Of a stretch of DNA of 48,729 nt, positions 16,623-46,460 are shown one piece after another. The translations under genes were made by a program, and so were the position numbers. Numbering within the stretch: position 1 is the first letter of the stretch; each line of letters begins with the position of its first letter. This DNA comes from Nemertoderma westbladi (lineage: Eukaryota > Animalia > Xenacoelomorpha), in assembly GCA_032718475.1 (NCBI GenBank), contig JAUCBJ010005728.1:1-48729 (forward strand), read 5' to 3'. Under the pieces are notes generated by a model that ran no database searches, had not been told where the DNA came from, and saw nothing but the letters and a program-made list of their open reading frames with translations.

Positions 16623-17678
16623 GTAATGTCAATTATTTTATGATAACTGAATTTCTGAATTTTAGGGTTACTTCCCTTTTACTTGTTACCGTAATTAAGC
16701 AGTAGTCCAACTGATATTAAGACCTAATTGATGTATAACAGGCCTACTATTTTATAAATCTGTTTGAGTTGATTTATAATATATATATACCCGTACAAGG
16801 GGTTTAACAATATTTGAAATAAATGTTATTATTTCTGAATAAGGAGTCACTATACAGAAGCTGAACGCTCTCAGTGGAGTGCTACTTGTTGGACACTATT
16901 ACTGATAATTCTACTTTACTAAGTTACTTATCACTACAAATTACTTACAATTACAATGGGTTGAGATCACAATCTCTAAATAAACAATAACAAGTTACAC
17001 GTACAATTTGTTAGGGTAATTTTACAAGAAATCTACAAACCAGCCTAACAAGGAGTTAGAATTTCTGGTTCTTACAAACTGACAGGAAACTACGGTATTT
17101 GAAAACAATAAAGCAGTAGTAAGTAAGTTGCGTTGTGCAGATAAGAAAATACCACCGTCTGACGACTTATAGTCTTAGCTCTATAAGTACTACATCATGT
17201 ACCCAGAGTGTCCTTACCTAGAGGTTAATTACCGAAGCCAACCAAAGCTAACGTGCCTATTAACCACTTTACAACATAAATATACTGCCTACACACTAAA
17301 TTAATTTCGGAAAGTACTGTACTCTAAACCCTAAATTAGGTACAAGTACTTATACAACAAATAACTAGCAGTTAAATATACTTGAACAGCCAAAAGAACC
17401 ACGGTATCTGCTGGAGTGACCGGAGCACAAAATCACCAGTCTTTACCTATGCCAAGTAGCCCTGATGTGGTACCGGGGTTAATTTAACTATAACGGTATG
17501 TATAACAAGCACAATTACTGTAAGAACCAACTTGGGGAATTGAAGGTTGCGAATACTCGCATAGACTCTGAATAATAAATATTACGCTACCCGTGCAGAC
17601 TATACAAACAAAATACAGACCAAATGCTGGCAGACTACTGTCAAGTCTAAATAAACTACAGTATAAGCAGACTCCGAA

Positions 17679-19479
17679 ATGGGTCCGAAGTGTCAACAGA
17701 GTTTACGATCTCGTATTGAAAATGATACTAAGAATGCGTTTCCGAAGGTCAAAGTTCGTGACAGTAAGAAATCTTTCAATGAGTCACTCATTCGATGTCT
17801 AGTTCAGTGTCAGGCGAAGTTCAAAGTTACAACTAATGATCTTCTGGGCATTTCGATGGCTCTTGCAAATACTGTTTTTGGTCAAGAATGGGGAATGTCT
17901 CCAGATGTTGAGGATAATGAGTCAGATAGTAGTGAAGATTACGATTATGATGAATGTGATAACATTGGGAAGCGCCATCGAAAGTGTGTAGATTATTCCT
18001 ACATTTTGCCTAGCCGAAGGTCAATTTTAAACTATCTTGAAGATGCTTCATATCTAAACTTAGAAGTGGTTGCACGTCATTTGCTTGGAAAACAAGATGA
18101 TGATGCTGTCACAATAGGAATTGATGATACAACAAAGGCTGCAGGTCACAAGGTGTTCAATATTAAAACAGATTATATTACGATTGCTGGACCCTCAACT
18201 AATCGAGAAACATATACCACTGGTTATATCGAGAATCTCTCTCATTCAGGGGAAGATGCTGCTAAAGCATACGAATTCAAACTGACATGCCTTGCCCTAT
18301 TGACAGATAGTTCTGTTGAAGAAATTATGGAGCATGTCGACTTTTGGATGAGTGATCGTGGCAGTGATTGTAAAACAATGCTGGAAACGTTGGGTGTAGA
18401 GAAAGAAAAAACTTTGAAATGTTGTGCTCACGTTTACCCTTGTTTTAATTGCAATAGCAAAACTGTTGTCACCAAGTCATTCAGCACATTCTGTTTCTTT
18501 ATACAATGACTTTGTGCACTGGTTGGAAGTAAATGAACTAGAACATGCTGGTTTCAAGGGCTTTGTTTCAAATCGATTTGGTCGCATTGCTGAACTAGCG
18601 AAATTATATCTGAGACATCAGCATGATATACAGACTTTCTTTGATACAGTTGTCGATTATAATTCTAACAAGCTAGTTTTAGCAGTATCCACTTTTCTAA
18701 AAAACGACTGGTTTCAATGTGCTGTCGAAGTTTACTCATTAATCGGTGAGATAGTGATATTTCCTATTATGACATTCCTGGGAATTGACAAAAAATCTCA
18801 GTCTAGTAATTGGTCTGCTTCAAAGGTGTTTTTCAAAGATATGATAGCTAAACTCACAACTCTGAGAGAACGATTTGGGAGTAAGATAACTGGAAAGGCG
18901 CAATTAATAGGATCAGTGCTTGAGGAAGTGAACGATGCCTTTAATCGACAACTTAATCAGGTAGACTACTTTTTTAACGATGAGACAACTATGGATACTG
19001 AAAAATTGAGTCGTGCACCTTTGACTAACTTGGGTTGTGAATCGCGTTTTGCAACTCTGGACAATCAGCTGAAAGTTTCTGGAGGGATGACTACAGTAAA
19101 AACTCACTCCCGTAAATCAATTGTCGCAACAAACAAGTTCCTAGAGAAAGATGAGTTTATTCAACTTAGCGAGGTTGAAAAACGAAAAAAATGGAAATGG
19201 GCTAGAAGCAGCGAAGCAGTGAAAAAAACAAAAAAAGTAGAAACGGAATTCCTGATGAAAGTTAAAATGAGTAAGGCATTGGCACTAAAAAAGAAAGGAG
19301 AACTCAAGCAACAGAAGATGAAACGACTGCAGCTGGTTTTGGAGGATTGTAAAAGACACCAAGGGCCAGTCACTTGCAAACGCATCTCATGCTGCACGAA
19401 GGCCCACAACGTGTTTTGGTTTAATTGTAGGCCATGTGTGTATATGTGCTTTAATAAAATGCATTTTCCTATGCAATAA
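17679..19479 (+). pseudogene. Truncated, frameshifted DDE transposase with a C-x2-H motif (hAT/Mutator/P/Kolobok-type group); superfamily unassigned
   Basis: VTIGIDDTT (D1), WMSDRG (D2), CCAH, helical insertion with SNRFG, PLTNLGCESRF (E). Frameshift near 18430. A possible right end lies near 19752. Confidence 0.6.
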
Positions 19480-22137: not shown

Positions 22138-22749
22138 TGTGACGGGATCAAGGGATCCCGACCGGGTTAAATCCTTACGCGTCACACAGGCTGATGGTGG
22201 TTGGTAAAAGGGTTTGAGTTTGGTGTTCAACTGATAATATAATGTATAATATAAGATAGTGATAGCACGATTGAATGACCGGATAATAAATCAGTATATG
22301 GAATAAGGCAGTACTGCAGTGACGGTAGAACTATATTGCCGGCCTGCACTGAAACTGACCACTACTGAGTAAACTGAGTCACGGGCCGGTAACAAATAGA
22401 TAATATATATAACACACCGATATTACTCTACCGCTACATTACTGTGGCCATTCACCCAGCGGATGCCCTCCTTCGCCCCTATTGGCCAATAACCTACTTC
22501 ACGCCTCTCACTCTCTCTGGGAGTGTTTCCCCCCCCCCCCCCCCTGTTGGCCCCTGCTGGTTGTTTCCCCTTTCGAGGTGGATTGACCTCTAACCTCCCT
22601 TTGTGTGGCTTTGGGGTTTGTGTTCTCCCCGGCGTTGGCTGTGATACGAGATTGGTTATTGCCAATCTCGTATCTCCAACATATTGCTGAAAAAGGTGCC
22701 ACTTCCCAACTTTGTGAGGGTAGTGCGGCGGAATTGAATCCGCATCACA
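22138..22749 (-). repeat. 3' LTR of element B
   Basis: Direct repeat of 45864-46460; preceded on the minus strand by the polypurine tract. Confidence 0.95.
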
Positions 22750-23319
22750 CTCCCCCCCATGCTATCTTCCCGGTGAGAAGATAGCATCACCTACAAGTGC
22801 GCTTCAATTCCGCTGGAACCCGATCTACTATCGGGTGTGGGGTGGAGTTCTTTTCTTGGAGTCGGCTTTCCAGGCCGCTCCCTCTGGGTATGATATTACT
22901 ACCCCTTCTTGGTGCAACCGCAACCTATGTTGCACCAAGACATCTGACGTCTCTGTTTGAGACAATTGTGGAATCCTCACACAATTTTAAAAGCTCTCTC
23001 ACTCTGAACTCTAACTTCTCACTCTAACTCCACTCCAACTCCACTCTGCTCGCCGCCCCACATTCGAATTGCACTCCTCTCACTCTCTCTCATCCTGTCA
23101 ACACCTCCTCTCCATACTTCCCTGTGCTCCTCTCATACTCCCAAAGTGTCAACTTTCTTATGCTACCCCTCTCTGTGCTATCATTCTACCTACCTTGCTA
23201 CTTACTTCTTACTTACTACTTACTATGCTAACTCTCTTGCTACTTACTTCTTACTTACTACTTATTGACTCTACCTACTAACTCTCTAACCCTACTAACG
23301 GTACTACTGTACCCTCTTA

Positions 23320-23922: not shown

Positions 23923-26900
23923 TCAATTCCAACTCACTAGGAATTGATTCTCCCTCTTCCGCCACTTTAAGATCGGGTCTTTCCGCCGCCTTCTTGACTT
24001 CCTCGTCCCCTGGCAGCAAAATGCCACCCCACCTTGTCGTCTCCCTGCGGCAGAATGGAAACAAACCGAAAGGACAGACAAAACAGAACGGACAATAGTA
24101 ATCCTAGCCCTTTCCACCCTGTCTTCTTGTTTGACCTTCCCCTTCTCGGTATGCCTCTCAATCGGACGCGGCGTCTCCTCCGGACACTCCTCCAGACACT
24201 CCTCTGAACACTCCTCCGGACATCTCGCCGTCCACTCTTCTCTGTCCCCATACCGATACTTGCCGGGAACATCCTTGTTCCATTCCATCGTCTCCAAGTC
24301 TTCCGCGTCGAATCCATTCTCCACCACCCACTCTCTTCCTATGACTTCCCCTCCTAACTTATCTACCGACGGTATTCTTCTGGAACTATCCTCTATCCTT
24401 TCAACACGCTCCACTGTGCATGGTTCCAGATCTATAGCCAACTCCTGGTATATTTTCTTGGGCCGCTTCTCACATGGGACTTCCCCATTGCCCGTCTCTG
24501 GTTTCTTCTCTACGTCCTCAATGGTGCCTGGTAGCATGCACCCTGATGTCTCCGACACCCTGTGATGGAACCTTGGTTTTAATTGGGCCGCTAAGCGTCC
24601 ATCCGAACGGCGTGAGAATCGCCGCCGGATCCCGCTGTCTGTCTTCCCCGAAGATCATCTGTACTCTTTCGTGGGCCGTCGGGCAGTCCATTCCCACTAT
24701 GATGGATACTTTCCTGATGTCCACCTCCGGTATCGAGAAATCGATATCGTCCAGGAACCGGTATTGCTCGACCTCGATCTTAGTTGGTCTCCTGGCATTT
24801 ATATTGATCGATTCTATGATCTGTATGGGTCGATAGTCGCCCCATAGCCACATCCTGGTGCTATTGCTGATATCTCGCACCGTCCCGTCCTCATCTCCAG
24901 GACCTCATCCTTACTCGAGATAGTAGTTACCGCCATCCTACTCGACCTCGTCTGTAACCCTATCTCCTCGGCCACCCAATTCTCCACCAGCATGAAGGCT
25001 GCTCCGCTGTCGACCAGCATCAATGTTGTGACTGATCGGCCGCCCCTTCCTGTTATCTTCACTGGCACTACCCCGAGTAGTACTTTCCTCTTACTTCTTG
25101 CTCCTGTCATCGCTCGTAGCCATTGCTTGGCCTCCAGTCTCATCGTCTCCTATTGGTGATTCTCTACAATCTCCGGATCTGTGTCCTTCTACCACGCATC
25201 GATGACATAGTCCGTTTGCGTCCAGCGTAGGCTACACGATCTTGTTTAGGCAACGCTTGCCAATGCTTACAACTCATGGTCTTATGGGTTCCATCCCTAT
25301 GCAATTGACATTCGAATCCTGGATCGTAGCGTTCCCTGTATAGTCCTTCACGTATCGCGCGTAGGTTTATATCTACCGATTTAATGTTTTGGTTATTTGG
25401 ACTTGGCCTACTGGGTGTGTTGGGATTTTGTTTGTTCGTGGTGTTATTTTCTTTCTGTCCCTGCCACAGTGTGGCCCTACTCCCAGCTAACTGTGGGCTT
25501 GTAGCCCCCTGTGTGGCTGCGTGTGGTAGCGACTGTCTCACTCTCGGAAATGGATCTGCAGTGATTGTGTTCGGGTTTAGGCCTGTTGTGTTCAGTCTTC
25601 GGCGCCTTCCCCAAACTATCCTCACTGTAGACTGGGTCTGTAATCAACTCTGCTTCGTAGTTGAGGAAGTTCGACATTTCCTCTAAGCCCGGTTCCGCAC
25701 CTTTCTTCTCACGGGTGGAGAAGGCGATCTTCCTCCACTTGCTCCGTAGCCAGATCGGCAGTGCCTGCGCTATCGTGGTGATATTATTAGATACGTTGAG
25801 TTCATATGGCGCTTCTAGTGTTTTCAGCACGATTAACGCCTTCTCGACCTTGTTCGCAAAGGTCTTTATGCTAACAGGGTTATCCCTCAAGGTCTGCCGG
25901 ATGATCTTGGCTGGGTGTCCGTATTCCCTGTCTAGGGCCCGCCATGCAGTCGTGAAGCCACCCTCGACACCCTGATACTGCCTCACGATGTCGTATGTTG
26001 GGCCTCCTGTATATACCTGTAGATATTTTAGGCACTCCGCCTGCGTCAGGTTCTTAGTTAATATCTTGTTGCTGTACATGCGTCGGAATTGCAGGTATTC
26101 TTCCGGTTTGCTTCCATCGAATTTAAATGGTTCTACTGGTGGTAATTCGATTCTGGTCTTCAGCGCATCCATAAGTGTCGCCATTCCCATTGCCTGTGCT
26201 TCCAGTGGATTCGAGGGATGCTGTACAGATTCTTCTGTTGGGTGCGGTCCGCCCATAGGGCCTGTTGACTTACTCTGTCTCGGATATATCATTGGGGGTA
26301 ACGGCCCCCTCCATATCTCCGTGTCGCACGACCTGTTCTCGTCCAGGGGGTTCGATGTTCTTATTCCTGTTTGAGTGTATTGTTGATATTGTAATGGGGG
26401 AATGTCACCCTGCCCCCCCCCCCCCCCCCCCACCCCACCGGTATTATGTTTGGTACTGGGGTTGATGTTAATATATTGGGGCCCATACACCTATCCGCAA
26501 TAACTCTCCCCTCCCCTGGATATATGTTATGTCCCTACATATTATAGTCATGCTTCTGTGCTGGTACCGATATAGGCCTATCCACTTCTTGCCTACCTAC
26601 CGGTATATACGCGGCGACTTCCGGATCTAATCCCGTCATTCGCGCTACCCTATCACCTACACTATCTCTCCCAGCATGGCCTATAGTATGTGCAGTAAGG
26701 CCTACAGTATGTCCTGCAGTCTGCATGTGCCCTTCCGGACCGAAGTTTAATCTTCTCGAATAATTCAAGAAGTCCTCCCCGCGACTACCGTACTCTCGAT
26801 CAGCAGCTATATCCCGTCGGGAAGTTTCCCTTCGATCCCCTCTCCTGTTCTCGTCCTCGTATCGTACGTTCTGTACCCTTCTTCTGGTGTGCGGTGCGTC

Positions 26901-27128
26901 TCTCCGGTGCGACGGCAATCTCCCGGAGTTCGACCCCACTGACTCCCTAACTCCATCTCTCCCACTCTACTACCGACGGTTCACTGTCCGTCCTTGCTCT
27001 CCAGTTGCTCGTAGCAACGATTCTTCTATTCTCTTCACTTCTTCTCTCTTCGACCTCCCGGTTAAACTCTACCATTCTTCTTCTCTCTTCCGACTGACGT
27101 CTTCTCGCTCGCCCACTCTCGGCACTAA
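23923..27128 (-). pseudogene. gag: Gag core and aspartic protease of element B (frameshifted)
   Basis: LPPVEPFKFDGSKPEEYLQF...LKYLQVYTGG...LDREYGHP, ALPIWLRSKW; protease VVPVKITG...LVDSGAAF, IIVGMD, TPFGWTLSGP. Confidence 0.88.
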
Positions 27129-27392
27129 CTGTATAAAATGGATAAATTCAAAATATATGGGCGTTTTATTTTCCTTATCTAAATATAATTGCACATCTTT
27201 ATGGCTTATCTAAATAATTATACTGTATGACGGCTAATATATTATACTGTATAACGGCTAATATATTATACTGTATAATATATTAGCCGTCATACAGTAT
27301 AATTATTTAGATAAGCCATAAAGACGCGCAATTATATTTAGATAAGGAAAATAAAACGCCCATATATTTTGAATTTATCCATTTTATACAGT
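27128..27392. repeat. Fold-back palindrome at the 5' end of element C
   Basis: 27128-27271 is the reverse complement of 27273-27392 plus one extra 24 bp unit; centre at 27272. Confidence 0.92.
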
Positions 27393-29263
27393 ATGTAGCC
27401 CTACGTACATAGTTTTGTAATAAAACATAAATAAATGGCTTTATGGTAGCAAGTTTCCTATAAAAACCTTGATGCAAGCTTGCTGTTATTGATTTCATTG
27501 TATTTGTCTTTTAAATTAGCTTTATATTAGATTGTGCTTAGTGTACTTTAAATATCGCGAAATTAATGTTAGGGCCAGCATCCAGGGACGCAATCCTAAC
27601 CATTCAGCAGCCAGGGACGTGATCCATTACCATATATGGTAATAAATTGCGATTTGGAAGCCCTGAGGTTCACAATTCGGCTTCCTTATTGGCCCAGCTG
27701 TTCCAGGTTGGTCTGATGGTGGGGCGGATTGGGGAACCAATGAGAGGAATATTGCGTCATCCCTGTTGCATCACCTATAAATTGGCTGTATTTCCGGTAT
27801 GTGCATCTTAATATCTCAATTGTTACAGCAGTACCAGTGGCAGTATTGTAGTTTTGTTTCTGGTTAATTGTTAATCTTTCGTCTATCTTTCTGTATTTCT
27901 CAATCAATTACTGCAAATTACAACTTTGAATTATGATTTCTACTTTGGATTATTAATTCCTACGTGATTTAAGATGTGATAATCCCACGGGATTTCTTTA
28001 GACTGTCAGACTGTTTATGATTGCATGCGCCGCTACAGTGGCTATTCATTCTATGTTCTAATGGAGGGCTAAGGTACCGGTAGGCGGGCGCACTGGGAGG
28101 AAGCGACGGAAGGGAGTGCAGAGGATCCAAAGCGGGGCGATGCTGGCGGGGGCCACCGTTGCGGTCGGAGCTAGTCAGTTGAGGACCGGGGACCAGCCGC
28201 TGTTACAGTATTAGGGGGCTGACGATCCAGATTTCCGTCCCTACTTTGTAGTTTTAGGGGGGCAGAATTTGGGTTTAGTTAGGAGTCCCATGTGTGGCTT
28301 TGGGTGACCTGTGGTTCTTACACTGACTGACTGATTGACTGATTGGATGACTAATACTGGTATACTGATGTACTAATGTATGGGTATTTAGTGCACTAGC
28401 TGATTGGTGTAGTTAGCGCTATCTGCCGTACTACTAACTTAGTGCTACGCTATTTGTGTTGTGTTGCTAAAGAGTGCCTGATTCTTAAATGTGAATGCTT
28501 AGATAGGCGCCTTTCCCTTTGATTGATTTCCATTTCTTAGTTTATGCTTATTAATTGCTAATTAGGTCAAAATAATACCGTATTTAGACTGTTGCTAGTA
28601 TAAGCCCCAGTACGTAAAAAATTAGAAGTACGTATTCTGGAATATCTAGTAATTAGTACGCGAATTTGTATTTATGACTGTAATTAATTTAGCGATAAAA
28701 TAAAATAAGAATTTGTACGCAGCATAGCGGAGAGCAGTTTAAGTAATTGTTTTAGAATACTGTAGACTATTCACGCTAGGCGGTTATTTGAAAATAGCGG
28801 GGCAACGGGCTGACAGCAGTGTCCAGTATACAGTACAGCAGTAGTAAGTTTGCTGATTTAAAACCAGCCAAAGGCCAAGTTTCAGCACCTAGGAAAGTAA
28901 CAGATCTATCCCCCTTAATATTAAAACATTCTCACAAATTGTTCTGCCAGTGAATTCCAGTATTTTGCGATAAGTGAACTCCGAGTGCTAGGTCACCCGC
29001 ACTCGTTTTAAGTAGTTTAGGGAACCGATTCGGGTTTATTGTTTTGGTTATTCCCGCGTGGCTCATAGATTCGAACAGTTAGCTCTCTGTTGAGCGATCA
29101 ACAGAGAAAGGAACAAGCGATTTGCAGGAGCCGTATAAAATTAGTAAAATATATTAGCGGACTGCCAGGTTAGCGCCATCCAGCAGTGAGAAGCAGTTTT
29201 GTGTTTAGCAGCAGTGCTGCAGTGCGGCAGTAATAACGCGCTCCTGATCACCCCTGTTTAACA
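27273..29263 (+). repeat. 5' LTR of element C (start replaced by an inversion)
   Basis: Direct repeat of about 42560-44548, identity ends at CCCCTGTTTAACA. Confidence 0.93.
27721..27781 (+). promoter_or_regulatory. Putative LTR promoter of element C
   Basis: GC box GGGGCGG (27721), CCAAT (27737), TATAAA (27776); conserved in the 3' LTR at about 43010-43070. Confidence 0.5.
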
Positions 29264-29273
29264 GTAAGAACCA
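29264..29273 (+). other. Non-tRNA primer-binding site candidate of element C (GTAAGAACCA)
   Basis: Immediately follows the LTR end; exact reverse complement of TGGTTCTTAC at 28312-28321 in the LTR. Confidence 0.6.
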
Positions 29274-30186: not shown

Positions 30187-33100
30187 ATGAGTGTCTCAGA
30201 CAAGGAGGCACTAGAGGACAGCTATGAGACGGCGGCCGGACCGCCGACTGATAACAGTGTAGACATAACTGTCGATGACAATGCTGACTATGACGATGCA
30301 GCGAGTGACGCTGACGTAAGTGAACAGGAGGACGAGACAGTAACTAGTGAGGAAGAACAACAACCTCAGGTAATAGTATTAGGATCCCCTACCACTACTG
30401 TAAGGAAGGATTGTACAGCAGCCCGACCAGAGGTGAGTGATAAGGAGGGTAGAGTAGCAGAAGCGAGAGCCCGGAGCCCGGTTTCCAGACCTGTGGGTAT
30501 GGTAAGTGCCGTGGCCCCAGCGGCTATAAGGAGTACCCGTAGTTCCCGAAATAATCCTTCAAGTCCACCAAGTGTGAGTCAGGTAAGCGAACAGCAACTG
30601 GACATCGCGATAAAGAAGAAACTTCGCGCGCATGCCGGACATATAACTCGGACGACGGATAAGGTAAGGAAGATGCTAGCCGACTCTGGTAACATCGGAA
30701 TGGAAGGGTTAGTAGAGATTAGAAAGGGATATAACTCAGCATTATTCAAGCAGACGGAGGAGCTTGCAGTCCTACCAAAGAGAGCAGTGGAGTCCCAGTC
30801 GAGCGACGTGGCGACGAGGGTTTACGACAGGGTTTTAGCAGCCTTGTTGGAGCGTTATCGGAGCGATTTCGGCGAGTTAGGACGGAGAACTGGTTGCTAT
30901 TGGCATCACAAGCGCAGGCGACTCAGGTGAGTGACGCAGAGTCAAGATCCTTAGTGGAGCGGGAAGAGACGCAGGATAAAGAAGAGCGCCATTATCAATG
31001 GGAAGTTACCAGCTGGCTGATGCAGAGTGGTGTGGTGGTACCGGGCCAGGTGCTACCAACGACGGACAACATCCAACAGAGAACGTTAACTCCACCCGAC
31101 GACGCATCTAGAGACAGTGGCGATTCCCAGGTTAGTCACGTGCGAGGGAAGGTTATATGTGCTAGATCCCTTGTTTCTCACAACTCGGTGGAGGAGAGAA
31201 GATGCCGACTAGATGAACAGCAGGCAGAAGTTTTGCGTGCATCGGAAGCACGGAAGGAAGCCGAGCGGGAGCGGGAGCGCACACGTAAGTTAGACGCAAA
31301 GTTGCGAGAGTTGGAAGACAAAGGTAAGCGTGAGCAAGCCGAACGCGAACAGGAAGAACGAGAACTCCAACTCGAACGCGAACTCCAACTCGAACACGAA
31401 CGCGAAGAACGCAAACTCCAACTCGAATGTGAACGGGAAGCCAAGGAACGCGAACAAAGGAGACGCGAACTCCAACTCGAACGCGAGCGCAAGGAGTGCG
31501 AACTTGAGTGCGAGAAGGAGCGAAGGGCGTTGTATGAAGAGAAGGCGCGTGTGGAAGAAGAGAGCGCAGCGAGACGAGCGAGGGAAGAAGAAGAACGTAA
31601 ACTGGTGCAGTTGGAAAGTGCGAGAGTAAACTTAGAGAGCGAAGAACGGACCAGGAAGGCGAATGAAATTGCCGAGAAGGGGATGCGAATGATCGAAGAA
31701 TGTGGGGCGAGTGTAGGTACTGAGTTGCGAGAACTGTTCGCATTGCAGAAGGCCGAACAGGAAGCGAGAACTCCGACTACACGCGAGTCGACGACGACCA
31801 GAATTCCTATACCTGGTCCAGCTATTACGAGTACTCGGATCGCTAAACAGTTCTCTACATATCGCACATTAGTGCTTCACCCATCGCGCAGAATCCGCGT
31901 CACCAGGTCACCGCACCACTACATACCGAACGAGACGATGAGGAGTTTAGAGAAACTCCGACAGGGCGAGTATTTGGCGAACTGAACCCGCGGGTTTGGA
32001 ATACGTGGACGGAGCGCCGACCCAGTTTGACGGAGAACTTCCTGGTTAAACCGGAAGAGGGATCATATGAGAGACAGCGGATTACTCAGATAGAGACGAC
32101 TATACAACAGAACCCTAGCCAGGAATTTATTACGAGGGATGAGTTAAGTGCTAGTTTAGCGCAAGCTATATCGCCGCACATCCAACCTATAACGGACATG
32201 CTTAGTAACCTACGGTTAAAGGAAGCAGCCCAGGTAAGAAGTAATTCAAATCCTAGCAGGCCTGAGTTAGATAAAGTCCAACCTAGTCAACAAGTACGCA
32301 TATCGGAGGCAACTATACCACATAGACCTCAGGTAAGGACGCCTGTCCTGACTATCCATAATCCCGATTTCGAAAACTCGGCCGAGAAGTTTATACAAGA
32401 GGCTTGGGTCAGGGCTTCGGCACGCAAACCAACGCGAGCGCTGAGGACTGATACTGACTCAACCAATGAAGAGAAAGACATGAGACGTCAGAAGTCCCGA
32501 AACTATAAGGAAAGAAGGACCGACGCGGAGCAGGTAAGTTTTAATCCCCGGGAAAGGACCAGACTTAATAACCCTGCAGAACTAAACCATTTGTTAACCC
32601 GGAACGACGCAACCCTTAGAGACATAGGTAAGTTTGCTGCTAGGCAAGGACTGCTGACGCAACAACCCCAGAAGTTTATGGGCAACCACAAACATTGGAG
32701 GACGTTCAAAACCTATGTCGACGAACAACTGACCAACAGCACCTTTACTCCCAAGGAGAAGTTCAACTATTTGCTTCAAATGCTCCATCGAGAACCTAGA
32801 GCCATTGCTGACATCTTCGTCGGCAATGAAAGAGCATTTGAGTTGGCAATGAAGACGCTTAGCAACATTTACGGGAATAAAACCAAGATGGCACAGTCGA
32901 TAGTGGAAGACTTGGGGAAGGGCAGAAGGATTACAACTCCGTTAGAGCTGTTGAACTTAGCGAATGCTATTTCGAACGCATTGGATATCTTGATGACGGT
33001 GAATCTACCTCATCATGGTGATCACGCCGAAGTTTTGAAGAGCGTAATTAGACGTTTAAACATGCGTTACAGACAGAAATGGCGCAAATTAGAGAATAAG

Positions 33101-33620
33101 TTGGAGGGTCAAGGTAAGGTGTTGACACTTCAACATATTCATGACATGATAGCCACAGACGCAGTAGCAGAGATGAAATCAAATTTCTCAGAGGAGAATA
33201 TGAGAGAGTCTAAACCTGTTGTTACCGGTAAGTCTATGGTAAGTTTTGACGATGACAGGACCACTGTGACATTTAACTCAGTAGACAGATATAATTCGAG
33301 TACCCCAGCCTTTAGATCAGACTCGCGCGTATGGTCAGGTGAGCGGTTAGATAGACCTAGGTTGAAGCAACAGGAGGATTTGTAGGTTGCCAATTCTGCT
33401 TACTAAAGGAGGTAAGATCTGACGACCATAAGTTAGATAGTTGCAGACGGTTCAAAGAATTAACTTCGGAACAGAGAAGAGTTCAAGTGCGGACGTTGGA
33501 CACCTGTTGAGCATGTCTTGCGCCAGGTCATGTACGGCGGCAGTGCCCGAACAGCAAAGATAGATGCATGGAATGCGGCAGACTACATCACAAATTGCTA
33601 CATGCGGATTTCCATACTCC
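30187..33620 (+). pseudogene. gag: Gag of element C (acidic N-terminus, ERE-rich coiled coil, capsid-like domain, three Cys-His motifs), frameshifted
   Basis: ORFs 30187-30930, 30894-31985 and 32027-33385 (KFMGNHKHWRTF...EKFNYLLQML...IYGN); then CQFC..H..C, C*AC..GH..C and CMECGRLHHKLLH at about 33390-33603. Confidence 0.9.
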
Positions 33621-33839
33621 AACGGACCATTACTTACAGCGAAATCCTCAAAGGAAAGGGAGCAGAGAACCCGTATCAACAAGGAGAAATACGTACACCG
33701 GCATTCAAGACGATGGTTATCAACCAGGTTCGTCGGACGAGGATGGCGAGTTGAGCGTGAGAGAGGTGACCTGCCAAGGTTTCACCGCGGATAGTTCATC
33801 GACCAGCGCGCGGACATATTTATCATCGGCCACGTCGGA

Positions 33840-36800
33840 AATATTTAGCGTGATTCCGGTGAAACTTACTGGCGATAAGGGATCTAAGCGAATATATGTG
33901 ATGTTGGACACTACGTCCACATTATCTTATATCGACGAGGAAGTGGCCAGAGCCGTTTCTAGCTTCCAGGACGCAGAGGAAATCCAAATAGAGTTAAAGT
34001 CTATGCACGGGGTAGGAGACCTCAAGGGACACAGAATTTCGGTAGAACTAGACTCCCTACTTCCGAGATACCAGCACACTCGACAAGAACGGAGAGCTTT
34101 GCCATTAGATGGATTTAAGTGTCTAGCTATGAAGGGATTCGGCAGGCAGTTAGGTAAGGTGCCGCCGATGAGTCCCATAGCACAGGAGTATTTTGATAAA
34201 CTCAGAGTACCGAGACACTAGGTAGGTTATAGGAATGTTTCTATGTTGATTGGTGCAGAACAGCTGATCGCACACCAAATATGGGAAACGAGACCAGCTG
34301 AGCCGCATGTAAATGGACCATATGCCCATACGACTATATTAGGTTGGTATACACGAGTACCCATGTCTTATGAGTTTACAGGTGGCGACAAGCCAATGGA
34401 TAGATACGACGGATTAAAGCCTATAACTGAAACACCGTTAGTAGAACCACCAGACATAGACGAGTTTAGGAGAACCTGTATTGACCATTATAGTGACGTT
34501 AGCGAGTCGGACGAGGAGTTGATTCCCGATAATGTTAGATTGTCGGAACCACTTCACAATGACCGGACAGATAGCGAACCCGAGGACTACTGTTATCAGA
34601 CCCGTGGGTCTGGTTCAGCGGCCCACGCTACTTATCTGAGCAACGTTTTGACTTATACCGACATAGTGGAGGGTCAAGTGGCTAGATATCGAGACCTTGA
34701 CATTTTCCAATACAGTGAGGAGGAGCTACAGAAGGAATTGATACGCCAGGACCTCAAGACAGGAGCCAGAACCGTCAAATGGCTGGATAGGGACGCAATG
34801 GAACCCAGTGGATATGACCTAGCCATGTCTGCTGATGAGAAACGGTTGCTAGAGATGATGGAAGGCACCATACGTCTGCTACCGACTGGACATTTTGAAG
34901 TTGGAATGTTGTGGCGTCGACAACCTCCTAAGTTGGAGAACAACTACAACTTAGCCTTGAAAAGATTGAACGGAGTAAGCGCTCGGTTGTTGAAGAATCC
35001 AGACATTAGGGAGAAGTATTGCACCCAGATCAACAACTATTTCGATAAGGGATTTGCTGGGAAGGTAGAGGACCCTGACTTAGTGACAGACCAGACTTAT
35101 TACCTCCCACACCACTATGTGTCTCACCCTGACAAGCCTGACAAAGTCCGAGTAGTCAACGACTGCGCAGCAGTCTACAGAGGTATGTCCCTGAATTCAG
35201 AATTGATGGATGGTCCCAACCTGAACAATTATTTGATAGGAATACTGTTGCGTTTTAGACAGCGGCGATTCGCATTTACTTGTGACATCGAGGCGATGTT
35301 CCACCAGGTAAGAGCCTGTAAGGAAGACCAGGATAGCCTTCGATTTCTCTGGTTTGAGAATGAAGACTTATCCGGCCCAGTGGTTACATACCAAATGTAC
35401 GTTAGGATATTTGGCACCCGCGATAGTCCAAACGGCACGCTGTTTGTTCTAAAGAAAATGGCAACAGCCCAGATTGGTAAGTATCCAGTAGAGGTTATCG
35501 AGTCCATCTTGAGAAACTTCTACATGGACGACGGATTGGTGTCCAAGGACACAGCGGAACAAGCCATAGAAGTGCCTACAGAAGTACGGCCTACAGAAGT
35601 GCTTGGCTACAGGGGGTTTTCCTCTAACCAAGTTCACTACGAACTCGGAGGCCCTATTAGAGTCGTTCCTGGTAAAAGATCGCGGGAGCGGAGACATAGA
35701 ATTAGGGGTAGAACCCATCCCCATGGCGCGAGTACTGGGACTCGCTTGGAACCCGAACACGGACAAGTTCCAGGTAAGAGTTAGATTTGAGCCCAGTAGC
35801 CCAGACAAAGTTTTGACAAAGAGAATTTGCTTATCGACATTGAGTAGACTATTTGACCCGATGAACTTTATCAGTCCGGTAATATTACAGGCACGAGCGT
35901 GCATGAGGAAAATTTGGTTGTCCGACCTAGAGTGGGACGAACCAATATCTCCTATACATACAAAGCAGTGGAGAGAGTGGGAAGCCGAGTTGCATGTATT
36001 GAAAAATATAGATGTACCCCGCTCCTACTTTCCGAATCAGCTGGTATTTCCAGCTGATCTCGAACTGCACCTATTTAGTGACGCAAGTGACACCAGCTTT
36101 GGTATGGTAGCCTACCTTCGCCGAGAGGTAAGTCAAGACAAGTTTGAGACGGCTTTTGTGACTTCTAGATCAATGACAATGCCGGTCAAATACATGACTG
36201 TCCCTCGTGCAGAGTTGCAGGCGGCAGTAGTTTCAGTCGAGGTAAGTAAGCAGGTAACAGAGGAGTTAGACACATCATTGACCTTATTCTATTGGACGGA
36301 CGCATCCTTAGTGTTAGTATACATTGCAGCCAACGATATTGCACTAAAGACATTTGTGGCCAACAGACGCGCTCAGATCGTCGACTTTTCGACGAAGGAA
36401 CAATGGAGACATTGTCCGGGAGTGTTAAACCCAGCCGACATAACTTCGAGAGGTGCAATGCCGGCGGAATTCTGTCAGAAAGAGTCCCAGGAGTTTTGGT
36501 TGCATGGACCTGATTTTCTAACGAGGACACAGGAACATTGGCCAGAGCGACTGAAGATAGTGACCAATCCGATGCCAGAGGATGCAGAAGTCAAAGTGGA
36601 GAAAGTCTCTAAGTCAAAGTCGAAAGCCAAACTCAAGTCATTGGAGCGGCCTGAAGAGTCATTGGAGCGGCCTGAAGAGTTATTGGAACGGCCCGGAGAC
36701 CTGTCAGACCAACAGACTTACGTGACTACTAGGTCCGGAAGGGTAAGTTATGACATAAAACCACCCTTACAGACTAAACCAGAGTCACAATTGGTAAGTG

Positions 36801-38324
36801 ACGGACAGAAAATGACCGACACAATGGAGCCTTTGGTTTCCAAACCTGCGGGTTTGGATTCGAAACTTCCATTAATTAGCGGACAACCGTCGCTGGCATT
36901 AGAGCCATGTAGTATTTATGACAAATTACTAAATTCGTCTGTCTCTTGGCTGACAATTTGTAAAAGAACTGCGTGGTTAAGCCGATATGTTTCGTACCTT
37001 TGTTTAAAACATTTGGAACATTTAGGAGAACAAATGAGCGCTAATAGTGAGCGAATTCAGAAATTGAAACAACCTCTGACAGAGGATGAGATTGATCAAG
37101 CGGAATTAAAGCATTTGAAACATTATCAAATGTGTGCCTTCCCAAAAGAATTCTATCTATTATCGGCTCAACGACCAGTTCTCTATAAACCCCTTAGAAA
37201 ATGGAGTCCATTAATCCATAAGGGTTTGATTTGTCACAGATCGAGAATCCAGACTGTCGACATAAACTCACAGTTTAGGGTCCCAGTGATAATCCCTAGT
37301 CACCCAATAGAATTGCAAAGAGCAATTCTATGGGATATACATAAGAGGTTGCATCACGCGGGAAAGTTACACTGTTTGTCGGCAGCGAGACAGCGATTCA
37401 TTATATTGCAGCCAAGCAGGGCAGTAGGCACTATGTATGACGCCTGTCTGGTTTGCAAGAGAGTGAACGCCAGAGTATTGGAACAGGAGATGGCTGAACT
37501 CCCGGAAGCGAGAGTGCAGGCATATGACCCACCCTTTACAAATACAGGGGTGGATTGCTTTGGTCCGATTGAGGCAAAGAGTGGACGGCTGACCCACAAG
37601 CGATGGGGCTACTGACATGCATGGCTAGTAGGGCCATACATATCGAGCGTGTAGCAAACATGTCGACCAAATCTCTGCTCCTGGCCTTAAAGAGATTTAT
37701 GGCCAGGAGAGGATTAGTAAAGGTGTTCTACTCTGACAAGGGTACAAACTATGTCGGAGGGAATAGCGAGTTGAACGCGGCTCACAGAGCAGCGCAGAAT
37801 AGAGAAATTTCTGCAGCACTTTTGCCGCAAAGAGTAGAGTGGAGATTTAATACTCCAGAAAGTCCTTGGAGAGGAGGAAGTTGAGAGCGTTTAGTTCACT
37901 CTGTAAAGCAGGCCATTGCCAAGACGTTGCCTGTAAATAAACAACTTACCGACGACGAGCTGGTCACAGCTTTCATCGAAATCGAGCATACACTAAACTC
38001 GAGGCCGATAGCTATGTTGCCAGACGGTGTTGCATTAACGCCGAATCATTTGCTAATGCAGATTCCAGCATTTCTTGTGCCGGCATCAGAACCCATTAGT
38101 GCCGACCTATACAGTCGTAAGAGCTGGAAGGTAACACAATTTGTGGCGTACACATTCTGGGAATATTGGCGGGAATATTATCTTCCCACCATATCTACCA
38201 GATCAAAGTGGTACAAACGGTTCGGAGCCTCCAAAGAGGAGACTACGTATTGATAACCGAACCGATTGTCAAGAGAAAATATTGGGAGACTGGAGTCATC
38301 TTGCACATACACCCAGACGTGCAA
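33840..38324 (+). pseudogene. pol: pol of element C (protease, RT, RNase H, integrase) with stops and frameshifts
   Basis: YVMLDTTST, YYLPHH, KVRVVND, CDIEAMFHQV, FYMDD, LHLFSDAS, PRAEL, NPADITSRG, HHCC, GVDCFGP, SDKGTNY, GGS*ERL. Confidence 0.95.
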
Positions 38325-39604
38325 CTACTAGGATCGGCATGCTGCATTGCAGCTGCATTTTTAAGAATGCTGTGCCGGCTTGTCAACAAAATTGCACCGC
38401 CACAACTCCCTATCACCCATGACATTTGCTAGATCATCCGCATCTTTAAGGCCAGTGTCCTTTAAGATGCGTCTCAAGAAAGTCATGGGCTGTCCACCAT
38501 GCTTATTCACTCCATGAGGCTGCCAAAGTACAAGATTATGCACTGGCTGGTCCTCACGGCGAAAGCAATGTCCTGCAAAGCGGAGGCGATTTTGTTCTAG
38601 TGTCAAGCTTGGGGGAACCAATGAGACACCTCCAATGTTATATAGTGTCTGGTTGGAGATGTGTGCATTGTACTTGACACAATGAACCCGGCGTAGCATT
38701 CTTGTGAATGTGCCATCCAGAGATTTGGTGTCCTCAGCAGTTAGAGCCCAGCATGGACTCCCGTAGAGGAGTACTGGAACTACTGCTGCTCTAAATAATC
38801 GGACCTTAAGTTTCCGATTAATTCTAGGTGACTTCCAAATCCTGGAAAGCCTATTCAAGGCTGCCCATGCCTTTCCCTTACGTATTCGAAGGTCCTCACC
38901 TGACTTCCGGATCCATGATCCCAGGTAACAGAAGTAGTCCACATGCTGAAGCATACCATCCTTTGAGCTTATGCTCATCCGATCAGAGACTTGCTGAGGA
39001 CTTTCAAAGTTAACTGTCAGAATTTTGGTCTTTCTGGAGTTAATAAAAAGACCAACACTAGAAGCAGCATGTTCTAATGAGCTGAGGAGCCGTTGGGCTC
39101 CCTCTAATGATTCTGAGAGTACTCCTAAGTCATCAGCAAAGTCTAGATCAGTTAGGTACTTGGCAGGATTTCCTCGACTTCTGGAGCCAGTAGGTGGAGT
39201 TATCATCACCCCATCATCATTATGATGATCTAAGGACATGCGTAGAACATAGTCTACCACAATAATGAACAAGAATGGTGCAAGTGTGTCTGCTTGGAGG
39301 ACGCCCCATAACACTTCAAATGGTTCTGTGTCACCGTCAACAGTAGACACAAATGTTGTCGAATCATCGTATACTGATCTGATTGTTGCAATAATTTCAT
39401 CAGGAATCCCATATAATGAAAGTATGCTGAACATACGTGACCGAGAGACTGAATCAAAGGCCTTGAAGAAGTCAACAAAGATAACAGCCAGATGCCTGTC
39501 TTTCTTTTTTGATAATTCTTCAATTATCCTTCTAAGAGCCAAAATGGGCTCCATGGTCCCACGACCTTTACGGAACCCATTCTGATTTCCACGGAGCAGT
39601 CTTG
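38325..39604 (-). mobile_element. 5'-truncated non-LTR retrotransposon (RTE/RTEX-like LINE)
   Basis: 9 bp TSD GACGTGCAA (38316-38324, 39605-39613); very short 3' UTR ending in TAGTAG; removal restores integrase HIHPDVQNIVRTVTV. Confidence 0.92.
38361..39554 (-). CDS. LINE reverse transcriptase, C-terminal portion
   Basis: FVDFFKAFDSV, GVLQADTLAPFLF, LDFADDL, FCYLGS, LLYG, RLRFAGHCFR. Confidence 0.92.
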   Translation of the reverse strand: MEPILALRRIIEELSKKKDRHLAVIFVDFFKAFDSVSRSRMFSILSLYGIPDEIIATIRSVYDDSTTFVSTVDGDTEPFEVLWGVLQADTLAPFLFIIVVDYVLRMSLDHHNDDGVMITPPTGSRSRGNPAKYLTDLDFADDLGVLSESLEGAQRLLSSLEHAASSVGLFINSRKTKILTVNFESPQQVSDRMSISSKDGMLQHVDYFCYLGSWIRKSGEDLRIRKGKAWAALNRLSRIWKSPRINRKLKVRLFRAAVVPVLLYGSPCWALTAEDTKSLDGTFTRMLRRVHCVKYNAHISNQTLYNIGGVSLVPPSLTLEQNRLRFAGHCFRREDQPVHNLVLWQPHGVNKHGGQPMTFLRRILKDTGLKDADDLANVMGDRELWRCNFVDKPAQHS

Positions 39605-39787
39605 GACGTGCAAAACATAGTGCGCACAGTCACTGTGAAAATTAGGTGCAAGTGTCCGCACCCAAATAAGTGTAAAACTAATGGTTTACACACCTTGGAC
39701 CGACCGGTCCAAGATATTGTGTTATTAGAGGAGACACGCATCGAGACGGGAGATTATAATTTGTCTCCTGCCTCAAACAAAAATTAG
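39605..39787 (+). pseudogene. pol: Integrase C-terminus of element C
   Basis: DVQNIVRTVTVK...LDRPVQDIVLLE matches the element A tail DGLVRSVELV...LNRPVGRLCLLE. Confidence 0.85.
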
Positions 39788-42492: not shown

Positions 42493-44548
42493 TGTTACGG
42501 TATGTGGCGCTGTACCTACATTAGCCCGTATTATACAGTATAATATATTAGCCGTTATACAGTATAATATATTAGCTGTCATACAGTATAATTATTTAGA
42601 TAAGCCCTAAAGACGCGCAATTATATTTAGATAAGGAATAATAAACGCCCATATATTTTGAATTTATCCATTTTATACAGTATGTAGCCCTACGTACGTA
42701 ATTTTGTAATAAAACATAAATAAATAGCTTTACGGTAGCAAGTTTCCTATAAAAACCTTGATGCAAGCTTGCTGTTATTGATTTCATTGTATTTGTCTTT
42801 TAAATTAGCTTTATATTAGATTGTGCTTAGTGTACTTTAAATATCGCGAAATTAATGTTAGGGCCAGCATCCAGGGACGCAATCCTAACCATTCAGCAGC
42901 CAGGGACGTGATCAATTACCATATATGGTAATAATTTGCGATTTGGAAGCCCTGAGGTTCACAATCCGGCTTCCTTATTGGCCCAGCAGTTCCAGGTTGG
43001 TCTGATGGTGGGGCGGATTGGGGAACCAATGAGAGGAATATTGCGTCATCCCTGTTGCATCACCTATAAATTGGCTGTATTTCCGGTATGTGCATCTTAA
43101 TATCTCAGTTGTTACAGCAGTACCAGTGGCAGTATTGTAGTTTTGTTTCTGGTTAATTGTTAATCTTTCGTCTATCTTTCTGTATTTCTCAATCAATTAC
43201 TGCAAATTACAACTTTGAATTATGATTTCTACTTTGGATTATTAATTCCTATGTGATTTAAGATGTGATAATCCCACGGGATTTCTTTAGACTGTCAGAC
43301 TGTTTGTGATTGCATGCGCCGCTACGGTAGCTATTCATTCTATGTTCTAATGGAGGGCTAAGGTACCGGTAGGCGGGCGCACTGGGAGGAAGCGACGGAA
43401 GGGAGTGCAGAGGATCCAAAGCGGGGCGATGCTGGCGGGGGCCACCGTTGCGGTCGGAGCTAGTCAGTCGAGGACCGGGGACCAGCTGCTGTTACAGTAT
43501 TAGGGGGCTGACGATCCAGATTTCTGTCTCTACTTTGTAGTTTTAGGGGGGCAGAATTTGGGTTTAGTTAGGAGTCCCATGTGTGGCTTTGGGTGACCTG
43601 TGGTTCTTACACTGACTGACTGATTGGATGACTAATACTGGTATACTGATGTACTAATGTATGGGTATTTAGTGCACTAGCTGATTGGTGTAGTTAGCGC
43701 TATCTGCCATACTACTAACTTAGTGCTACGCTATTTGTGTTGTGTTGCTAAAGAGTGCCTGATTCTTAAATGTGAATGCTTAGATAGGCGCCTTTCCCTT
43801 TGATTGATTTCCATTTCTTAGTTTATGCTTATTAATTGCTAATTAGGTCAAAATAATACCATATTTAGACTGTTGCTAGTATAAGCCCCAGTACGTAATA
43901 AATTAGAAGTACGTATTCTGGAATATCTAGTAATTAGTACGCGAATTTGTATTTATGACTGTAATTAATTTAGCGGTAAAATAAAATAAGAATTTGTACG
44001 CAGCATAGCGGAGAGTAGTTTAAGTAATTGTTTTAGAATACTGTAGACTATTCACGCTAGGCGGTTATTTGAAAATAGCGGGGCAACGGGCTGACAGCAG
44101 TGTCCAGTACACAGTACAGCAGTAGTAAGTTTGCTGGTCTAAAACCAGCCAAAGGCCAAGTTTCAGCCCCTAGGAAAGTAACAGATCTATCCCCCTTAAT
44201 ATTAAAACATTCTCACATTCAATGTGTTCTGCCAGTGAATTCTAGTATTTTGCGATAAGTGAACTCCGAGTGCTAGGTCACCCGCACTCGTTTTAAGTAG
44301 CTTAGGGAGCCGATTCGGGTTTATTGTTTTGGTTATTCCCGCGTGGCTCATAGATTCGAACAGTTAGCTCTCTGTTGAGCGATCAACAGAGAAAGGAACA
44401 AGCGATTTGCAGGAGCCGTATAAAATTAGTTAAATATATTAGCGGACTGCCAGGTTAGCGCCATCCTGCGGTGAGAAGCAGTTTTGTGTTTAGCAGCAGT
44501 GCTGCAGTGCGGCAGTAATAACGTGCTCCTGATCGCCCCTGTTTAACA
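42493..44548 (+). repeat. 3' LTR of element C (2056 bp)
   Basis: TGTTA...TAACA termini; preceded by GGAGCGG; 24 bp tandem repeats near the start. Confidence 0.93.
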
Positions 44549-45712
44549 CTGTGAGTGGGGTATTAACAAACGTTTCCATTACTTCTGGCACCACGTAAGT
44601 ACTACCCGAGCCAGCCTCACTCTCTGATAGTCCCAACTGCGCCAGTTCTAGTCGGCGCTTCTGCTTGGCCTGATATTGCATAAGCCCCCTTAACCGGGCA
44701 TGTATATCATCCCGCATACGCTTTCCCGTTCTCTCTCTCTCTCCCTATCCTCTAGCAAACTTTGGTCAGCCGACTATGCCTCTCTCGCAATCCTCTCAAG
44801 CTGCCTCACCTCACGCTCTTTACGCTCGTTCGCCTCTCTCGCCTCTCGCTCCTTCTCCTCCCTTATTTCTCTCTCCTCACTCTCTCTAAAGTTTCTCGCC
44901 ACCCTTTTGGCCCTGTCTTTACACTCCCTCGCTAACTCTCTCTCTTTCTCTAACAACGCAGTTCCCTCGTCCAACTGCCTCTCTAAATCTTTCTGGTCTA
45001 GTGCCACCATGTCTAGTTGACATGCCAGATCTATCTCTAACACCCTTCTTGCTTTCGCGGAGGATGTAGCGGACTTATCGGTCGCGACAGACTCCCGTCG
45101 CCTCTCTGTCCTACTAACTTTCCCCCGCTTTCTGGGGTTCTCGCTAACCGACAAGACCAAATCCTCGGGGTTAACCTCGGGTTCGCCCTCATGCGGATCT
45201 GCGCAACCCACTAGCTTAATTCCCCTAGAATCCACTAAGTACGGCCCTACGTACACTACTCCTGGCTCCATAATCCCGGATCGCCACAGTTCGAATAGTT
45301 CGGTGGTGACCCCGCTCGCTCTCTCACTCGCCGGTTCTCCCTGCCCGAAACGAACTAGATACCGAAAATGTTTATTCGACTCACCTAGTCGCTGGCTCAA
45401 CTTCCCCTGATTTACCTTCTCTACCTCTCTGGCCTCCTTCAACAGTTTCTTGGTGGCGTTGTAGGCCCGTCGAAGCCGATCGCTGGTCCCGACGTCCTCT
45501 TCGCCGACATCTCCTCCTCCTCTCCTGGTTCGGCGTCGTACCGGCGGCCCCACCGTCGCCGTTCCGGTGGGCCGTCCATCGCCCTCGGCCTGTGGCTGGC
45601 TGGCGACTTCGGTACTCTGACCGCCATCGTGCGTCAACTCGTCCCTTCCTCGTGGTAGACGGCCGCCCTCCGCTTGGGGTGCTGGATTGTCCCTCGTCGG
45701 CGAATCCGGCAT
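44549..45712 (-). pseudogene. gag: N-terminal Gag region of element B (coiled coil)
   Basis: ORF 44774-45712 starts about 150 bp after the 5' LTR; E/R-rich; continues across the element C insertion site. Confidence 0.8.
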
Positions 45713-45852
45713 CGCAGGTCAATACCGTCTCGTCACGGCCTCGCGGATCGGTCGGTTGGTGTCGTCCGGGGTCCGCGGCGGTGTCCTCCCTGGATCTCGG
45801 GGCTCTCCTTAGTTCATCTTTACTCTCAGACTTGCAGTCACAGTTCTTTGGC

Positions 45853-45863
45853 TATAGTTCTAC
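45853..45863 (-). other. Non-tRNA primer-binding site candidate of element B (GTAGAACTATA)
   Basis: Immediately follows LTR end CGTCACA; exact 11 nt reverse complement of LTR segment 46052-46062 (22325-22335 in the 3' LTR). Confidence 0.65.
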
Positions 45864-46460
45864 TGTGACGGGATCAAGGGATCCCGACCGGGTTAAATCC
45901 TTACGCGTCACGACAGGCTGATGGTGGTTGGTAAAAGGGTTTGAGTTTGGTGTTCAACTGATAATATAATGTATAATATAAGATAGTGATAGCACGATTG
46001 AATGACCAGATAATAAATCAGTATATGGACTAAGGCAGTACTGCAGTGACGGTAGAACTATATTGCTGGCCTGCACTGAAACTGACCACTGAGTAAACTG
46101 AGTCACAGGCCGGTAACAAATAGATAATATATATAACACACCGATATTACTCTACCGCTACATTACTGTGGCCATTCACCCAGCGGATGCCCTCCTTCGC
46201 CCCTATTGGTCAATAACCTACTTCAAGCCTCTCACTCTCTCTGGGAGTGTTTCCCCCCCTGTTGGCCCCTGCTGGTTGTTTCCCCTTTCGAGGTGGATTG
46301 ACCTCTAACCTCCCTTTGTGTGGCTTTGGGGTTTGTGTTGTCCCCGGCGTTGGCTGTGATACGAGATTGGTTATTGCCAATCTCGTATCTCCAACATATT
46401 GCTGAAAAAGGTGCCACTTCCCTTTGTGAGGGTAGTGCGGCGGAATTGAATCTGCATACA
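45864..46460 (-). repeat. 5' LTR of element B
   Basis: Direct repeat of 22138-22749. On the minus strand: CCAAT near 46204, TATATATA 46128-46135, Inr-like TCAGTT 46096-46101. Confidence 0.95.

What the first reader, a model, noticed from the sequence alone, without database searches (positions are those of the whole stretch)
45853..46062. Self-complementary PBS in BEL/Pao element B: candidate tRNA-independent self-priming
Seen: directly after the 5' LTR end (CGTCACA) the sense strand reads GTAGAACTATA rather than TGG. Its exact 11 nt complement TATAGTTCTAC lies in the LTR (46062-46052; also 22335-22325), roughly 40-50 nt downstream of a TATA/Inr-predicted start. Established: LTR elements normally prime on a tRNA 3' CCA end (PBS starts TGG); S. 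pombe Tf1 and related Tf1/sushi-group chromoviruses instead self-prime with an 11 nt 5' segment of their own RNA. Inference: this BEL/Pao lineage self-primes, apparently from a transcript-internal segment. I am not aware of this being described for BEL/Pao, but could not check the literature.
Basis: partly seen in the sequence, partly recalled or inferred. Interest (0 to 1): 0.9.

Follow-up and report, generated by a model that had tools for sequence, protein, structure and literature searches.

The report
Self-priming BEL/Pao retrotransposons, splice-built primer
A jumping gene in an animal genome lacks the usual tRNA landing site and instead carries an exact complement of that site in its own terminal repeat, so it likely starts copying itself with a piece of its own RNA; in most relatives read here that piece would only be formed when a predicted intron is spliced out.

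Summary
Observation confirmed. Element B (LTRs 46460-45864 and 22749-22138, 5-bp target duplication, BEL/Pao gag and protease, no pol found) has 11 non-TGG bases directly after its 5' LTR whose exact complement lies in both LTRs. A distant BEL/Pao element nested in it (C) has the same arrangement with other letters. Of 34 related loci read (of 90 fetched), 4 show the same contiguous match. In 22 the 10-15 nt complement exists only across a predicted LTR intron (20 exact, 1 with G:U, 1 with a mismatch). Two have a TGG site and 6 were unreadable. The letters differ between families but the pairing is kept, with a double compensatory change between two sister families. Best reading (0.8): tRNA-free self-priming by a transcript-internal segment, cut after a conserved AC/AU; in most relatives the primer is likely assembled by splicing. 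No RNA evidence: start site, splicing and cut are inferred. ICTV lists host-tRNA priming for this family; eight literature searches found no report of this. This scan's agents noted the same idea in three findings on other DNA.

The parts
45864..46460 (-). Element B 5' LTR (597 nt, TG...CA)
   Evidence: 95.5% identical to the 3' LTR
45853..45863 (-). Element B primer-binding site (non-TGG, no spacer after the LTR)
46052..46062 (-). Element B candidate self-primer segment, exact complement of the PBS
   Evidence: paired with the PBS in the minimum-energy and centroid folds
46128..46135 (-). TATA-like run; Inr-like TCAGT at 46101-46097 (predicted start)
   Evidence: read from sequence; not mapped
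46046..46051 (-). 6-nt segment after the primer that can pair with 45911-45906 in U5 (possible accessory stem, weak support)
   Evidence: fold; variants mixed
44774..45718 (-). Element B gag, N-terminal part (no Pfam hit), interrupted by nested element C
25477..26490 (-). Element B gag, DUF1759 domain
   Evidence: Pfam E 4.8e-08; 22% identical to gag of C
24814..25149 (-). Element B aspartyl protease piece; no RT, RNase H or integrase found after it
   Evidence: Pfam Asp_protease_2 E 1.1e-06; no pol hit
22750..22758 (-). Element B polypurine tract
22138..22749 (-). Element B 3' LTR, with the primer-segment copy at 22335-22325
27240..29263 (+). Element C 5' LTR (start rearranged by an inverted duplication)
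28312..28321 (+). Element C candidate self-primer segment (copy at 43601-43610 in the 3' LTR)
29264..29273 (+). Element C primer-binding site GTAAGAACCA, directly after the LTR
31847..38214 (+). Element C gag-pol, broken into several frames
   Evidence: DUF1759, Peptidase_A17, Integrase_H2C2; tblastx to element A
42529..44548 (+). Element C 3' LTR
17520..17529 (-). Element A possible primer segment (same 10-mer as in C)
   Evidence: LTR of A not confirmed by a second copy
17066..17075 (-). Element A possible PBS core, 4 nt after a TGTCA that may end the LTR
   Evidence: upstream of A's gag at about 16240

Best explanation
Element B is a pol-less BEL/Pao-type LTR element whose primer-binding site is the exact complement of an 11-nt segment of its own LTR, and it likely primes reverse transcription with that piece of its own RNA instead of a tRNA. 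Shown: the complementarity, its position abutting the LTR end, and its retention with different letters in element C and in 26 of 28 readable relatives. Inferred steps: (1) transcription starts near 46100, so the segment lies about 40 nt inside the RNA; (2) it pairs with the PBS 188 nt downstream; (3) the RNA is cut after the segment's last base, probably by the RNase H of a reverse transcriptase supplied by a full-length copy, as in Tf1; (4) the new 3' OH is extended into the LTR's terminal CA, giving a strong-stop DNA of about 190 nt; (5) plus-strand synthesis would copy the primer and so keep PBS and primer matched. In most relatives the same primer is split by a predicted LTR intron and would be assembled by splicing of the 5' copy. 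The cut lies 4-8 nt into exon 2, so the intron would be inherited from the unspliced 3' LTR copy. B, C and four relatives carry the primer ready-made.
For: Window: B 11 of 11 nt; C 10 of 10 with other letters, gag only 22% identical to B's. Relatives, 34 of 90 loci read. Contiguous match in L039, L040, L041, L058. Match of 10-15 nt across a GT...AG junction in 22 loci. L071 and L072 are about 92% alike here and differ at two exon-1-end positions and at the two PBS positions that pair with them. In host contigs, the one listed variant inside B's primer (46055) and a PBS variant (45860) are the two sides of one base pair, G:C to A:U; the other PBS variant (45861) gives G:U (unphased). The paired segment ends in AC or AT in 24 of 26 loci and in B and C, and the site starts 0-5 nt after the LTR, where the TGG sites of L066 and L085 sit. 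Tf1 mechanism: passages of PMC7175516.
Against: No RNA was available, so start site, splicing, cut and primer use are unobserved. The whole-leader fold of B is not unusually stable (z -1.43, 18 of 200 shuffles as good; L058 z -1.37 and its centroid lacks the helix). Tf1 uses the first 11 bases of its RNA; an internal primer with a 40-500 nt 5' tail has no tested precedent that I found. B shows no AATAAA/ATTAAA between primer and LTR end (read), so the repeat needed for strand transfer is not located. The accessory stem is not consistently kept. L082 has one mismatch and L063 a G:U. Splice sites were called by eye; LTR ends were checked against the second LTR in only 8 of the 26 matching loci. 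Several loci are close kin (about 17 distinct junction types among 22). Host tRNAs could not be searched.
Confidence: 0.8

Rival explanations
1. The primer is the same sequence but comes in trans, from a separate short or spliced LTR transcript (for example from solo LTRs or a subgenomic RNA) that is packaged and processed, not from the genomic RNA folding back.
For: DNA copies keep the intron in both LTRs (repeat spans), which is easy if the genome is unspliced and a second RNA gives the primer. B-like LTRs are abundant in host contigs. The cis fold is not significant.
Against: Tf1 precedent is in cis. The cut position in exon 2 already explains intron retention in cis. The trait persists in contiguous forms where no separate RNA is needed.
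Confidence: 0.1
2. The pairing is a structural switch (packaging, dimerisation or translation control) and priming uses something else.
For: Long-range leader pairings are common in retroelements (own knowledge). No priming product was observed here.
Against: No TGG site at the LTR end in B or C; the helix always ends 0-5 nt from the LTR end with a fixed AC/AT end, the geometry of a primer; the two TGG-type loci have their tRNA-like site in the same place.
Confidence: 0.06
3. A host small RNA (tRNA half, tRNA fragment, snRNA piece) primes, and the LTR match is chance or a by-product.
For: Half-tRNA priming is known in copia lineages (PMC6317226 passages). A and C share an identical 10-mer, which hints at an outside constraint. 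Host tRNAs were not searchable.
Against: About twenty different site sequences each match their own LTR, often only across an exon junction, with compensatory changes between sister families. A fixed host RNA cannot follow these.
Confidence: 0.04

Closest known systems
Tf1/Tf2 of Schizosaccharomyces pombe and the Tf1/sushi and Tcn1 chromoviruses (Ty3/gypsy)
   Same: About 11 nt of the element's own RNA complementary to a non-tRNA PBS beside the 5' LTR (PMC7175516 and PMC6317226 passages).
   Different: Different superfamily. [quoted passage not shown] The cut is shown for Tf1, only inferred here.
TAR lineage of plant Ty1/copia (Houba, Osr-1)
   Same: Self-priming predicted from sequence, arising apart from Tf1/sushi (PMC6317226 passages).
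   Different: Copia, plants; no intron-split primer in the passages read.
Belpaoviridae / BEL-Pao as defined by ICTV (PMC8742986, passages)
   Same: LTR-gag-protease order, DUF1759 gag, polypurine tract; full Pao-type pol in C, A and the relatives.
   Different: The profile gives an 18-nt PBS for host tRNA-Arg or tRNA-Gly and host-tRNA priming. B, C and 26 relatives lack such a site; only L066 and L085 have a TGG site.
C. elegans Cer7, a BEL element said to encode its own tRNA-like primer (recalled, not read)
   Same: A BEL/Pao element supplying its own primer.
   Different: That primer is a tRNA-like gene; no tRNA or other Rfam family was found in this window.

Membership tests
BEL/Pao (Belpaoviridae) | Paired LTRs with TG...CA ends, target-site duplication and polypurine tract | tested here: met
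BEL/Pao (Belpaoviridae) | BEL/Pao-type gag followed by aspartyl protease | tested here: met
   DUF1759 and Asp_protease_2 in B; DUF1759 is on most full-length Pao-type hits
BEL/Pao (Belpaoviridae) | RT, RNase H and integrase of the Pao type, placing the element by phylogeny | tested here: inconclusive
   Absent from B; present in C and A (Peptidase_A17; integrase zinc domain; DUF5641 in A). No tree was built and no superfamily (Sinbad, Suzu, Sailor...) assigned.
BEL/Pao (Belpaoviridae) | 18-nt PBS complementary to a host tRNA 3' end (ICTV profile) | tested here: not met
   No TGG at the site in B or C; met in form only by L066 and L085
Tf1/sushi self-priming group | Ty3/gypsy chromovirus polyprotein | tested here: not met
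   BEL/Pao domains only
Tf1/sushi self-priming group | PBS complementary to about 11 nt of the element's own LTR RNA | tested here: met
   and 26 of 28 readable relatives
Tf1/sushi self-priming group | [quoted passage not shown] | tested here: inconclusive
   TATA-like runs lie 50-190 nt upstream in B and the relatives inspected, which points to an internal primer; no start site mapped
Tf1/sushi self-priming group | RNase H cut that frees the primer | not testable with these tools
   needs cDNA intermediates or an enzyme assay

The most novel reading that the evidence does not exclude
A widespread clade of BEL/Pao retrotransposons has dropped tRNA priming and uses the host spliceosome to build its reverse-transcription primer: an intron in the LTR is removed from the 5' copy only, the exon junction pairs with the PBS and is cut after a conserved AC/AU. 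Elements B and C are the ready-made branch of this system, with an internal, unsplit primer.
Probability: 0.65. Interest if true: 0.9.

Novelty: new variant of a known kind. Interest (0 to 1): 0.8.

Why it matters
It would extend self-priming to a third LTR superfamily that is officially described as tRNA-primed, and add two features not in the Tf1 model: an internal primer and a primer made by splicing. Replication would then depend on host splicing, giving the host or the element a switch. It also explains why PBS finders that look for tRNA matches would miss these elements. The prediction is sharp and cheap to test: a defined RNA-DNA junction at a named base.

Tried and rejected
No host genome is held, so host tRNAs and other B copies could not be searched. 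No RNA holder listed; this is no evidence on expression. Two viral-contig scans gave no relative. Searching the 90 loci for B's and C's own site motifs gave 3 and 1 hits; the one upstream hit, L079, lies in coding sequence. ARAGORN and Rfam found nothing in the window, so no element-encoded tRNA. An upstream intron ending inside B's primer was considered and rejected: there is no room after the predicted start and no pyrimidine tract. The repeat at 4283-4607/47522-47869 is not the LTR pair of element A. The broad read-laying did not list the site. The global protein alignment (9 rows, 28-36% to C) was too coarse to place clades; rows with stops were left out and no tree was built. Loci L044, L045, L061, L067, L068, L079 could not be scored (LTR cut off); L067 shows the exon-2 half only. 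55 of 90 loci were not read; L006 was read only for the LTR end. PMC554778, PMC3118150 and PMC6238403 have no hit for PBS, tRNA or priming. Supplements of these papers were not opened.

Full report
Observation. The window holds three BEL/Pao-type elements. Element B lies on the minus strand with LTRs at 46460-45864 and 22749-22138 (95.5% identical; alignment), a 5-bp target duplication and a polypurine tract. The 11 bases after the 5' LTR (45863-45853) are the exact complement of 46062-46052 and of 22335-22325. The 11-mer occurs 3 times against 0.04 expected. The geometry is that of a primer: the 3' base of the LTR segment pairs with the first base after the LTR's CA. B encodes a DUF1759 gag and a protease piece. 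No RT, RNase H or integrase was found in it by Pfam or by tblastx against A and C, so its family assignment rests on gag and protease.

A second case in the window. Element C (plus strand, nested in B, Pao-type pol) has its LTR end at 29263/44548, followed by GTAAGAACCA. The exact complement is in both its LTRs (28312-28321, 43601-43610, 5 matches against 0.09 expected). The gag domains of B and C are 22% identical. The same 10-mer pair flanks a 444-nt stretch upstream of element A's gag, but A's LTR has no second copy in the window, so A is only probable.

Relatives. An alignment of 29 homologues of C's RT region fetched 68 metagenome loci (best 80 of 628 confirmed stretches) and 22 loci from genome contigs. 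Named homologues are mostly from molluscs, corals, an echinoderm, a tunicate and a fish. After the script machine was lost I located LTRs with the repeat finder (58 loci) and read 34 of the 90 loci by eye. Two have a TGG site: L085 directly after the LTR and L066 after 5 nt. Six could not be scored (L044, L045, L061, L067, L068, L079). Four have a contiguous self-match like B: L039 10 nt, L040, L041 and L058 11 nt each.

Split primers. In the other 22 loci the complement is not contiguous. It appears when the bases before a GT donor (GTRAG in all but L077, GTATG) are read on into the bases after a pyrimidine-rich AG acceptor in the LTR. Match lengths and positions after the LTR: L001 15 nt (+4 to +18); L003 12 (+1; 103, 104); L004 13 (+4; 59); L008 10 (+1; 47, end supported by L006, 122); L009 11 (+5; 76, 94); L018 11 (+4; 42, 43, 58); L019 11 (+4; 60); L023 11 (+6; 61, 66); L026 12 (+4; 48, 57); L031 11 (+3; 68, 69); L033 13 (+4; 70, 71); L036 12 (+3; 44); L038 11 (+4; 62); L048 11 (+4; 72); L064 11 (+3; 75); L071 11 (+2; 64, 67); L072 11 (+2; 96); L074 11 (100, 121); L077 11 (+6; 108, 109); L083 11 (+1; 95, 98); L063 11 with one G:U (46); L082 10 of 11 (73, 81). 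For L003, L023, L026 and L083 the junction was read before the PBS and predicted it; for L074 the PBS predicted the donor, found about 1 kb upstream. A hand estimate allowing 2000 junction, phase and offset trials per locus gives about 1e-3 per locus for an 11-nt match; no shuffle test was run. The loci are not all independent: about 17 distinct junction types. LTR ends were confirmed against the second LTR in 8 of the 26 matching loci (L001, L018, L031, L033, L036, L039, L082, L083); the others rest on the terminal CA and position.

Covariation. L071 and L072 are about 92% alike in these regions. They differ at positions -1 and -3 before the donor and at PBS positions +10 and +12, which are the partners; both pairs stay Watson-Crick. 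Among B-like copies in host contigs of three DNA runs (two samples), the only listed variant in the primer is 46055 and the PBS variants are 45860 and 45861. 46055 and 45860 form one pair (G:C to A:U); 45861 gives G:U. These are unphased, and variants near the LTR end may partly come from flanks of other LTR copies. The paired segment ends in AC or AT in 24 of the 26 loci and in B and C; L071 and L072 pair one base further. This suggests a defined cut or start point.

Mechanism. In Tf1 the first 11 bases pair with the PBS and RNase H cuts between bases 11 and 12 (PMC7175516, passages). I infer the same chemistry. Differences: TATA-like runs lie upstream of the segment in B and in the relatives where I looked for one, so the primer is probably internal; and in most relatives it needs splicing. 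Several loci keep the intron in both LTRs (for example L036, L063, L071, L083). This fits, because the cut lies a few bases into exon 2: strong-stop DNA would copy only what is downstream of the cut, and exon 1 with the intron would come from the unspliced 3' copy. Splicing of that 3' copy would yield the contiguous form; whether B arose this way is not shown, and B still has an intron-like stretch downstream of its primer. The leader of B folds with the primer-PBS helix plus a 6-bp neighbouring stem, but overall stability is within the shuffle range (z -1.43).

Limits. No RNA run was listed and no host genome was held. Start site, splicing, cleavage, cis versus trans supply and host small RNAs are untested. 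No tree was built.

Prior knowledge. The ICTV profile (PMC8742986, passages) states an 18-nt PBS for host tRNA-Arg or tRNA-Gly. PMC6317226 (passages) lists self-priming for Tf1/sushi, Tcn1 and copia TAR only. Keyword look-ups in three BEL/Pao surveys (PMC554778, PMC3118150, PMC6238403) found no mention of PBS or priming; PMC3601003 (passages) did not model BEL/Pao LTRs. Eight full-text searches (listings only) showed no title or abstract on self-priming in BEL/Pao; (self-priming with splice junction) returned nothing. The library lacks most subscription papers and Repbase notes. Three earlier notes of this scan on other DNA reach the same reading; I saw them after writing the idea down, and they are not counted as evidence. 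No look-alike of B's DNA is in the scan's index.

Verdict. The feature is real and far beyond chance. It works like Tf1 self-priming but is not a member of that group. It is a new variant of a known kind, with the splice-built primer as the most novel part. Interest 0.8.

Noticed in passing
window 46041-45958 (minus strand): Intron-like 84-nt stretch in B's LTR just downstream of the primer: weak GT donor, acceptor followed by TTGAAC like exon-2 starts of several relatives. Other host copies differ over nearly this interval (joint 45955-46032). Its junction does not match B's PBS; possibly a relic of the split-primer state.
   Followed up: partly
window 45864-46051 (minus strand): No AATAAA or ATTAAA between primer and LTR end in B, unlike several relatives; an AATATA overlaps the primer's 5' end.
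   Followed up: no
window 17066-17075, 17520-17529 and 28312-28321, 29264-29273: Elements A and C share the identical 10-nt site and complement although their pol segments are only about 33-52% identical.
   Followed up: partly
window 17667-19479 (+): Two overlapping ORFs without Pfam hit, transposase-like by eye, sitting in the region where A's 5' LTR should continue.
   Followed up: no
window 27128-27392: 127-nt inverted duplication at the start of C's 5' LTR.
   Followed up: no
window 38361-39629 (-): Separate reverse-transcriptase ORF (RVT_1, DUF6451), probably a non-LTR element inserted in C's 3' region.
   Followed up: no
L041:120-130 and L048:2318-2325: A contiguous-type and a junction-type locus share the same exon-2-side letters and PBS start, as expected from precise intron loss or gain.
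   Followed up: partly
L069-L090: BEL/Pao elements, several complete, lie in contigs filed under bacterial genomes; probably host-animal contamination of those assemblies.
   Followed up: no
L049:1-15890: Tandem 6138-nt repeats of one BEL/Pao element, 100% identical; an LTR circle or an assembly artefact.
   Followed up: no
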